Shown here piece after piece: positions 54,654 through 54,802 of a stretch of DNA of 64,000 nt (positions are counted from its first letter, which is position 1; each line of letters opens with the position of its first letter). The stretch lies in the IMG/VR virus record IMGVR_UViG_3300028048_000054; one strand, written 5' to 3'. The DNA comes from a virus. Its lineage: Duplodnaviria > Caudoviricetes. The notes under the pieces were generated by a model. That model saw nothing but the letters and a program-made list of their open reading frames with translations, was not told where the DNA came from and did no database searches. Made by a program: the position numbers and the translations under genes.

Positions 54654-54802
54654 TTATGGAAGAATAATTATAGTGCACTCATATGCTAACCTATGCTCTA
54701 CTCGTTGAGCTACTCCTCTATATCTGGTAGAGGAGATGGGACTTGCACCCACAACCCCAGGTTCCTATTCAGCGAAGTAAGCACCACTACCGCTTTCCAT
54801 AA
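54654..54802 (-). ncRNA. Y RNA, YrlA type (permuted tRNA-like domain)
   Basis: Terminal Ro-type helix (GGAAAGCGG...TATTCTTCC), then T arm, closed acceptor stem CTCCTCT/AGAGGAG and D arm; near Ro60 gene. Confidence 0.8.

What the first reader, a model, noticed from the sequence alone, without database searches (positions are those of the whole stretch)
54654..54802. YrlA-like RNA retains ACCA in the loop closing its acceptor stem
Seen: CTCCTCT-A-CCA-GATAT-AGAGGAG followed by a normal TAGCTCA..GTAGAGC D arm, i.e. a perfect 7-bp acceptor with discriminator and CCA. Inference: cutting the loop would give a two-piece RNA with a chargeable CCA end tethered to Ro60, analogous to two-piece permuted tmRNA.
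Basis: partly seen in the sequence, partly recalled or inferred. Interest (0 to 1): 0.7.

Follow-up and report, generated by a model that had tools for sequence, protein, structure and literature searches.

The report
Phage Y RNA with encoded CCA
A small RNA gene beside a phage Ro60 gene is a rearranged tRNA look-alike whose closing loop reads like the junction between two tRNA genes (ACCA plus a short spacer); its closest relatives keep this, so it is probably cut open into a two-piece RNA with a tRNA-type CCA end, as shown once for a mycobacterial Y RNA.

Summary
On the minus strand, 54802-54654 encodes a YrlA-like Y RNA, 644 nt downstream of a Ro60/TROVE gene and inside a phage tRNA array. 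It has a T arm, a perfect 7-bp acceptor stem, a 9-nt loop that starts A73-CCA, and a normal D arm. A conserved Ro60-type handle clamps the whole.

The NCCA is not chance. It is kept in the nearest relatives although their acceptor stems have different sequences, all perfectly paired. It is also kept in a 60%-related phage and in Bacillus phage G. About 20 more distant phage modules lack it. So do about 25 bacterial ones, which cap the stem with short loops of 4-8 nt, often tetraloops.

The loop matches real tRNA-tRNA junctions of the same operon: CCA plus 4-5 A/U-rich bases, with U at -1.

The idea of a cut, two-piece, CCA-ended Y RNA is not new. Chen et al. 2014 showed RNase P cleavage and CCA completion for M. 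smegmatis YrlA. What is new is a fully encoded CCA kept across a phage clade. Cleavage here is inferred, not shown. Nothing supports charging, and no module has a G3:U70 pair.

This scan has found phage YrlA-like RNAs before on other DNA.

The parts
54654..54802 (-). Whole Y RNA gene (third of three handle-bounded RNAs in the window)
   Evidence: Consensus fold of five orthologues. Handle-bounded search. tRNA-Thr starts at 54649.
54795..54802 (-). Terminal stem P1, 5' strand; pairs with 54661-54654
   Evidence: 8 invariant pairs in 5 orthologues.
54654..54661 (-). Terminal stem P1, 3' strand
54773..54797 (-). Conserved 5' handle: the GAAAGCGG-type motif, the P2 5' strand (54787-54781) and the UUACUUCG motif (54780-54773). 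Presumed Ro60-binding side.
   Evidence: Nearly invariant in relatives, and the motifs recur in distant phage and bacterial Ro60-linked RNAs. P2 covaries.
54660..54676 (-). Conserved 3' handle: the P2 3' strand (54676-54670) and the AUUAUUCUU-type motif (54668-54660)
54759..54763 (-). Anticodon-stem-like helix, strand that pairs with 54692-54688
   Evidence: Read and present in the minimum-energy fold. Not in the 5-sequence consensus fold.
54736..54752 (-). T arm (5-bp stem, 7-nt loop with G instead of U at position 55)
54729..54735 (-). Acceptor 3' strand (positions 66-72)
54725..54728 (-). Discriminator A73 and encoded CCA
   Evidence: Conserved in L162-L166, L169, L002/L082 and phage G.
54720..54724 (-). 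5-nt A/U-rich spacer with U at -1. RNase P cut predicted between 54720 and 54719.
   Evidence: Same length and make-up as real tRNA-tRNA spacers in this array. The cut is inferred.
54713..54719 (-). Acceptor 5' strand (positions 1-7)
54695..54710 (-). D arm (YrlA-typical GCUC/GAGC stem)
55444..57078 (-). Ro60 (TROVE) gene, 544 aa, the presumed protein partner
   Evidence: Pfam TROVE, E 2.5e-7. Profile match to solved phage phiLo Ro60 9KOP, E 8.5e-18. 45% identical to Bacillus phage G gp540.
54815..54919 (-). Sister Y RNA with the same handle carrying a whole tRNA-Phe-like body
   Evidence: Called tRNA-Phe with two acceptor mismatches.
57097..57176 (-). Sister Y RNA with the same handle and a small non-tRNA payload

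Best explanation
This is a phage Y RNA of the YrlA type. It has a circularly permuted tRNA-like module (T arm, acceptor stem, D arm) mounted on a conserved stem, and that stem presumably binds the Ro60 protein encoded 644 nt upstream.

Most YrlA RNAs close the acceptor stem with a short capping loop. Here the stem is a true 7-bp tRNA acceptor, and its loop is written as a miniature tRNA-tRNA junction: A73-CCA, a 5-nt A/U spacer, U at -1.

The most likely mechanism is as follows:
1. Host RNase P, which must already cut every junction of this tRNA operon, also cuts between 54720 and 54719.
2. 3' exonucleases trim the spacer back to the encoded CCA.
3. The two pieces, about 76-78 nt and 66 nt, stay together. 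They are held by the acceptor helix, the elbow and the handle stems.

The product is a Ro60-bound, two-piece tRNA mimic with a genuine free CCA end. That end would at least protect the nicked RNA from exonucleases.

Shown here: the anatomy, the Ro60 linkage, conservation of NCCA with stem covariation, and the contrast with capped relatives. Inferred: Ro60 binding, cleavage, and the role of the CCA end.
For: 1. Anatomy and linkage.

2. NCCA follows a perfect 7-bp stem in W/L162-165, L166, L169, L002a/L082a and phage G, and these stems differ in sequence. All 42 pair cells are Watson-Crick when L167 is included. Pairs 1:72 and 3:70 each take four different forms.

3. NCCA occurs in 7 of 25 distinct modules against 0.28 expected.

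4. Between W, L166 and L169 the handle is 81-92% identical but the payload only 58-68%. ACCA is nevertheless invariant.

5. About 25 bacterial relatives close the stem with 4-8 nt loops, often tetraloops, and none has NCCA. L002 carries one NCCA module and one module capped with four U side by side.

6. In this window 12 of 21 tRNA genes encode CCA. Neighbouring tRNAs are separated by CCA plus 4-5 A/U bases, often with U at -1, which is the same layout as the loop.

7. Precedent: M. smegmatis YrlA has a 7-bp acceptor. RNase P cuts it in vivo and in vitro, it gains CCA, and it stays bound to Rsr as 82-nt and 65-nt halves (PMC4201824; 10.1101/312249).

8. No parent tRNA was found among 720 tRNAs in hand, which argues against a fresh tRNA-derived relic.
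Against: - There are no RNA-level data, so neither ends nor cleavage has been observed.
- A73 can pair with U-1, giving an 8-bp hairpin. That could shift or hinder the cut.
- A 9-nt closed loop may be sterically tight for RNase P.
- The T loop has G at position 55, so the elbow that RNase P reads is not canonical.
- L167, whose Ro60 is 74% identical, has ACA rather than ACCA and a decayed D arm.
- L168 has lost the whole tRNA-like module, so the module is dispensable in some phages.
- NCCA is scattered on the Ro60 tree, with phage G and L151 lying apart from the window clade. Descent and convergence therefore cannot be separated.
- The counts are of related sequences, so they are not independent.
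Confidence: 0.55

Rival explanations
1. The RNA stays closed. The NCCA loop on a tRNA-like acceptor is a docking site rather than a cleavage site. It would tether Ro60 to a protein or ribozyme that recognises tRNA 3' ends (RNase P, the CCA-adding enzyme, a synthetase, or a tRNA-targeting defence nuclease), much as Y RNA tethers Ro60 to PNPase.
For: - Y RNAs are known tethers, and the partner of the YrlA tRNA-like module is unknown (10.1101/312249). Phage phiLo Ro60-Yrl complexes recruit host PNPase (PMC12135203).
- The A73:U-1 pair gives a stable 8-bp hairpin.
- Conservation of NCCA fits binding as well as it fits cutting.
Against: - The spacer after CCA varies in sequence and length, from 5 to 21 nt, as expected for a discarded leader and not for a binding loop.
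- The one tested YrlA with a 7-bp acceptor is cut.
- RNase P must be active on the same transcript.
Confidence: 0.25
2. The CCA is a neutral relic. The permuted module arose, or was replaced, by tandem duplication of a CCA-encoding phage tRNA gene, and the junction has simply not decayed yet.
For: - 12 of 21 tRNA genes here encode CCA.
- The payload is far more diverged than the handle, which could mean cassette replacement.
- L006 shows a tRNA-Asn followed by a copy of its own 5' half across a CCA junction.
- NCCA is scattered on the Ro60 tree.
Against: - The D arm and layout are those of the old YrlA family, not of any tRNA in hand. No tRNA among 720 matches both halves.
- At least five stem versions are all perfectly paired and all keep NCCA, while the next loop bases vary.
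- Capped relatives show that selection acts on this loop.
Confidence: 0.12
3. It is a permuted tRNA gene that is matured into a real tRNA. The handle would be excised and the ends joined, for instance by the phage's kinase-phosphatase-ligase, and the acceptor loop then opened.
For: - Wang et al. raise this possibility for YrlA in general.
- The window encodes a kinase/phosphatase/Rnl1-type ligase fusion at 11138-13345.
Against: - There is no anticodon-loop sequence and no splicing-type motif.
- The handle is the most conserved part and is shared with payloads that are not tRNA-like.
- L168 keeps the handle alone.
- ARAGORN finds no tRNA here.
Confidence: 0.03
4. It is an artefact: the T arm of one tRNA gene and the D arm of the next, the 'dimeric tRNA' false positive that Chen et al. 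warn of.
For: My own covariance model does pick up many such junctions in tRNA arrays.
Against: - No tRNA overlaps the element.
- The two acceptor strands are complementary to each other.
- The flanks form a conserved handle rather than tRNA bodies.
Confidence: 0.01

Closest known systems
Mycobacterium smegmatis YrlA (Chen et al. 2014, PMC4201824)
   Same: - Ro60-linked permuted tRNA-like Y RNA with a 7-bp acceptor stem.
- Experimentally cut by RNase P and ending in CCA.
- The halves of 82 and 65 nt stay on Rsr. The pieces predicted here are about 76-78 and 66 nt.
   Different: - There only part of the CCA is encoded and CA is added after nibbling. Here the full NCCA is in the gene.
- Cellular there, phage here.
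- Its 5' motif GNCGAAN0-1G is absent here.
- Nothing has been tested on this RNA.
S. Typhimurium YrlA and the Rfam family RF02553 (structure: Wang et al. 2018, 10.1101/312249)
   Same: Same order of T arm, acceptor-like stem-loop and D arm. Same conserved D stem, Levitt-pair covariation, and position beside Ro60 on the same strand.
   Different: - That RNA has a 6-bp closed stem and 'lacks a free CCA end'.
- This RNA scores 27 bits against a gathering score of 69, and only over the tRNA-like part.
- The handle motifs differ.
Bacillus phage G YrlA-like RNA (NC_023719.1, about 405241-405314; phage G is listed among Y-RNA phages, per PMC12135203 citing Chen 2014)
   Same: Its Ro60 is the closest match among cultured phages, at 45% identity. 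It has a 7-bp acceptor followed by ACCA and the same handle motifs.
   Different: The loop is 25 nt. The RNA lies upstream of Ro60. I found no paper text that mentions its CCA.
YrlA-like RNAs upstream of rsr in Lachnospiraceae and other Clostridia (loci L194-L251)
   Same: Same handle motifs, same T and D arms, and a Ro60 that is 44-50% identical. They match the full length of the Rfam YrlA model at 36-49 bits.
   Different: The acceptor stem is closed by short 4-8 nt loops, often tetraloops, and none has NCCA.
Two-piece (circularly permuted) tmRNA
   Same: A permuted gene order in which the acceptor strands are joined by a loop that is cut out, giving two paired pieces with a CCA end.
   Different: This RNA has no tag reading frame and no G3:U70 alanine identity. 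RF04321 scores 14 bits against a cut-off of 47. The partner is Ro60, not SmpB. This is an analogy only.
Permuted tRNA genes of Cyanidioschyzon merolae (Soma et al. 2007, as cited in 10.1101/312249)
   Same: The 3' half precedes the 5' half, and the acceptor loop is opened by RNase P or RNase Z.
   Different: Those mature through a circular intermediate into decoding tRNAs. Here a conserved Ro60 handle stands in place of the anticodon loop.

Membership tests
YrlA-type Y RNA (Chen et al. 2014; Rfam RF02553) | Encoded within about 4 kb of a Ro60/TROVE gene, on the same strand | tested here: met
   The RNA is at 54802-54654 (-) and Ro60 at 57078-55444 (-), a gap of 644 nt.
YrlA-type Y RNA (Chen et al. 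2014; Rfam RF02553) | Permuted tRNA-like module: T arm, acceptor-like stem-loop, D arm with tRNA-like loops | tested here: met
   In the flanks printed and the D loops, the Levitt pair reads A15:U48 here and G15:C48 in L166.
YrlA-type Y RNA (Chen et al. 2014; Rfam RF02553) | Score at or above the Rfam gathering threshold (69 bits) | tested here: not met
   27.1 bits, model positions 23-85 only. No relative reaches the threshold either.
YrlA-type Y RNA (Chen et al. 2014; Rfam RF02553) | GNCGAAN0-1G motif near the 5' end (proposed Ro60 contact) | tested here: not met
   The motif is not present. A different conserved handle stands there, shared with Clostridia YrlA-like RNAs.
YrlA-type Y RNA (Chen et al. 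2014; Rfam RF02553) | Bound by Ro60/Rsr | not testable with these tools
   Needs co-immunoprecipitation or a gel-shift assay.
RNase P-opened, CCA-ended YrlA (M. smegmatis type) | Seven-base-pair acceptor stem | tested here: met
   7 of 7 Watson-Crick pairs, 54735-54729 with 54719-54713.
RNase P-opened, CCA-ended YrlA (M. smegmatis type) | Cleavage at +1 by RNase P and a 3' CCA on the upstream half | not testable with these tools
The CCA is encoded (54727-54725).
Two-piece tmRNA | tmRNA covariance model, tag reading frame, G3:U70 | tested here: not met
   RF04321 scores 14.2 bits against 47. ARAGORN finds no tmRNA in the window. Pair 3:70 is A:U here and never G:U in relatives.
Tandem tRNA junction (false positive) | T arm and D arm belong to two complete flanking tRNAs | tested here: not met
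   No tRNA call overlaps the element. The flanks form the handle.
Permuted tRNA gene | An anticodon arm is recoverable after joining the ends | tested here: not met
   The ends form conserved stems P1 and P2. There is no anticodon loop.

The most novel reading that the evidence does not exclude
After it is opened, the free CCA end is used and not merely tolerated. The Ro60-bound two-piece tRNA mimic would be aminoacylated, or engaged by EF-Tu, the ribosome, the CCA-adding enzyme or a host tRNA-directed defence nuclease. The phage would then carry a Ro60-tethered acceptor-arm decoy or adaptor, a Y-RNA counterpart of tmRNA.
Probability: 0.08. Interest if true: 0.85.

Novelty: new variant of a known kind. 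Interest (0 to 1): 0.48.

Why it matters
The published view is that YrlA RNAs are closed, CCA-less tRNA mimics, and that the cut, CCA-ended M. smegmatis RNA is an exception.

A phage clade keeps a perfect acceptor stem and a fully encoded NCCA junction, while bacterial relatives cap the same stem with short loops, often tetraloops. This suggests that 'openable' and 'closed' Y RNAs are two selected states.

It also gives a simple, testable system for three questions:
- whether Y RNAs are processed like tRNAs;
- what the tRNA-like module recruits;
- whether phage Ro60 particles take part in the contest over tRNA cleavage and repair. The same phage carries a near-complete tRNA set and a kinase-phosphatase-ligase repair enzyme.

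Tried and rejected
- blastn of the region against cultured phages found only a tRNA match to Caulobacter phages and no orthologue.
- No whole genome is held for the window.
- A first IMG/VR scan with the single Ro60 protein found nothing. The profile scan worked.
- An IMG/VR pattern scan for the 5' handle motifs returned 30 loci, all chance hits in coding DNA.
- Rfam at gathering threshold finds no YrlA in 15 related loci.
- My covariance model R1 is too permissive. It also finds ordinary tRNA-tRNA junctions, so I counted modules with a stricter script plus ARAGORN masking.
- A search for a parent tRNA of the payload among 720 tRNAs found none.
- I considered a pairing of the loop CCAG with CUGG in the variable region. 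It is kept in the window, L165 and L166 but absent in L169, L002a and phage G, and it is geometrically implausible in an L-shaped fold. I dropped it.
- By eye, and from memory only, the 5' handle resembles the upper stem of human Y RNAs. The Rfam Y_RNA model gave no hit at E up to 10, so I make no claim.
- The supplementary tables of Chen 2014 and two reviews are not held. I therefore could not check whether the phage G CCA was noted before.

Full report
**What is there**

All genes in the window lie on the minus strand. The DNA is 32-41% G+C. A cluster of 20 tRNA genes lies at 46.6-57.3 kb, with one more at 15.5 kb. Homing-endonuclease ORFs lie between the tRNA genes. This is a large phage.

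Read on the minus strand, the flagged span contains:
- a T arm (54752-54736)
- a 7-nt strand (54735-54729)
- A, then CCA (54728-54725)
- five A/U-rich bases (54724-54720)
- the exact complement of the 7-nt strand (54719-54713)
- TA
- a standard D arm (54710-54695)

No tRNA is called there. Rfam's YrlA model matches the T-acceptor-D part at 27.1 bits, E 9e-4, below its gathering score of 69. A descriptor for this layout hits once in the window and 0.05 times per shuffled window. The only corrections are one-base shifts in the predicted ends, and the fact that A73 can pair with the last loop base to give an 8-bp hairpin.

**Context**

The 544-aa ORF at 57078-55444 carries a TROVE domain. A profile of it and its relatives matches the solved Ro60 of Thermus phage phiLo at E 8.5e-18. 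Its best match among cultured phages is gp540 of Bacillus phage G, at 45% identity. More than 3000 relatives exist in metagenomes.

The RNA is one of three in the window bounded by the same conserved 'handle':
- 57176-57097
- 54919-54815, which the tRNA finders call a poor tRNA-Phe
- 54797-54660, the RNA studied here

Earlier notes of this scan describe the same trio. I confirmed it independently.

A consensus fold of five orthologues gives an 8-bp terminal stem, a covarying 7-bp second stem, and the T, acceptor and D hairpins. The handle motifs recur beside Ro60 genes in distant phages and in Clostridia genomes. The Clostridia RNAs match the full length of the Rfam YrlA model at 36-49 bits.

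So this is a YrlA-like Y RNA of a subfamily that Rfam's threshold does not reach.

**Is the CCA more than chance?**

I collected Ro60 loci from IMG/VR, JGI metagenomes, Logan/ENA assemblies and GTDB genomes. I then listed permuted modules that do not overlap tRNA genes.

| Locus | Ro60 identity to window | Loop after the 7-bp stem |
|---|---|---|
| L162-L165 | 81% | ACCA; same stem as the window; one loop base differs in L165 |
| L166 | 81% | ACCA; two stem pairs changed on both sides |
| L169 | 82% | ACCA; a different stem and a different spacer |
| L002 / L082 | 60% | GCCA; yet another stem. A second module beside it is capped by three or four U |
| Phage G | 45% | ACCA, then 21 more loop bases |
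| L167 | 74% | ACA; the D arm has decayed |
| L168 | 82% | the whole tRNA-like module is lost; the handle is kept |
| L287 | 59% | permuted module, no CCA |

Across these six stem versions, L167 included, all 42 pairs are Watson-Crick. Pairs 1:72 and 3:70 each occur in four forms.

About 20 further phage modules lack CCA; a relative of one of them, L151, has C-CCA. About 25 distinct bacterial modules close the stem with 4-8 nt loops, often tetraloops, and none has NCCA.

In the phage set, 7 of 25 distinct modules have NCCA against 0.28 expected from loop composition. The sequences are related, so the nominal P of 8e-9 overstates the case.

Between the window, L166 and L169 the handle is 81-92% identical and the payload 58-68%, yet ACCA is invariant. 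No tRNA among 720 in hand looks like a parent of any payload.

On a Ro60 tree, the window subclade and L002 fall in one well-supported clade, while phage G and L151 lie elsewhere. The trait was either lost repeatedly or gained more than once.

**How it most likely works**

In this window 12 of 21 tRNA genes encode CCA. Adjacent tRNAs such as Asn, Gly and Gly are separated by CCA plus 4-5 A/U bases, commonly with U at -1. The acceptor loop has exactly this layout. It is a tRNA-tRNA junction folded back on itself.

RNase P has to cut every such junction of the operon, including the one 6 nt after this RNA, at the start of tRNA-Thr (54649).

Chen et al. 2014 showed the following for M. smegmatis YrlA, the one tested YrlA with a 7-bp acceptor:
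- RNase P cuts it at the tRNA +1 position, both in cells and with M1 RNA.
- The upstream half is nibbled and ends in CCA.
- The 82-nt and 65-nt halves co-purify with Rsr.

Wang et al. 2018 describe the other YrlA RNAs as closed and lacking a free CCA.

The pieces predicted here are 76-78 nt (54802/54800 to 54725) and 66 nt (54719 to 54654).

I therefore rate opening by RNase P, followed by trimming to the encoded CCA, as the best explanation, at about 0.55. The anatomy, linkage and conservation are shown. Ro60 binding, cleavage and the purpose of the CCA end are inferred.

Chen et al. proposed that the CCA protects the nicked RNA from exonucleases. That is the most economical role.

**What is not supported**

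Charging has no evidence. There is no anticodon, and no NCCA module has G3:U70, the element that lets AlaRS charge tmRNA. The permuted-tmRNA model scores far below its threshold. The tmRNA comparison is an analogy of gene layout only.

**Rivals**

- The loop may stay closed and serve as a docking site for a factor that reads tRNA 3' ends (0.25).
- It may be a not-yet-decayed relic of a tRNA duplication or a cassette swap (0.12).
- Maturation into a real tRNA, and a dimeric-tRNA artefact, are both very unlikely.

**Novelty**

The following are in print: Y RNAs in phages, including phage G; the tRNA-like permuted fold; and RNase P opening with a CCA end.

I did not find the following in the papers I could search:
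- a fully encoded NCCA junction
- its retention across a phage clade with a covarying stem
- the contrast with the short capping loops of bacterial relatives

The supplementary tables of Chen 2014 are not held. This scan has reported phage YrlA-like RNAs repeatedly on other DNA.

Noticed in passing
L168:2405-2469: In a phage whose Ro60 is 82% identical, the orthologous Y RNA keeps both handle halves but has lost the entire tRNA-like module. This is a natural 'handle-only' variant.
   Followed up: partly
window 54741-54747 and 54699-54706 (minus strand); L166:6818-6824: The T loop has G where tRNAs and most YrlA RNAs have U55, so no pseudouridine 55 is possible. The D loop lacks the usual GG. 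L166 has the canonical U55 and GG, so positions 18 and 55 may change together.
   Followed up: no
window 54815-54919 (minus strand): The 'tRNA-Phe(GAA)' called here has two acceptor mismatches and no CCA. It sits inside the same Ro60-type handle, so it is a Y RNA with a whole tRNA body and not a decoding tRNA. A second, normal tRNA-Phe lies at 57204-57275.
   Followed up: partly
window 11138-13345 (minus strand): A 735-aa ORF fuses a P-loop kinase, a calcineurin-like phosphoesterase and a T4 Rnl1-type RNA ligase domain. That is a complete end-healing and sealing enzyme of the tRNA-repair kind.
   Followed up: no
window 46590-57275: 12 of 21 tRNA genes encode CCA. Most RNAs of the array, the Y RNAs included, are preceded by an A/U-rich leader of the ATTTAT type with U at -1. 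Several tRNAs start with A, U or C rather than G.
   Followed up: partly
L002:5897-5955 and L002:6080-6132: Two permuted tRNA-like Y RNAs lie side by side after one Ro60 gene. One has a GCCA junction loop and the other is capped by four U, which suggests an 'openable' and a 'closed' paralogue.
   Followed up: partly
L006:3390-3513: A complete tRNA-Asn ending in GCCA is followed, after 12 A/U bases, by a copy of its own acceptor 5' strand and a D arm. This looks like a tandem duplication, the kind of event that could give rise to permuted modules.
   Followed up: no
L141:335-976, L151:1881-2524; L140:2648-3052, L157:7072-7472: ROOL RNAs (277-284 bits) and tmRNA genes lie within a few kb of Ro60 in related jumbo-phage contigs.
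   Followed up: no
window 51845-52408, 41794-42849, 39731-40897, 4803-6131 (minus strand): Auxiliary metabolic genes: pyruvoyl-dependent arginine decarboxylase, an F420-0:gamma-glutamyl ligase-like protein, an IMPDH/GMP reductase-like protein, and serine hydroxymethyltransferase.
   Followed up: no
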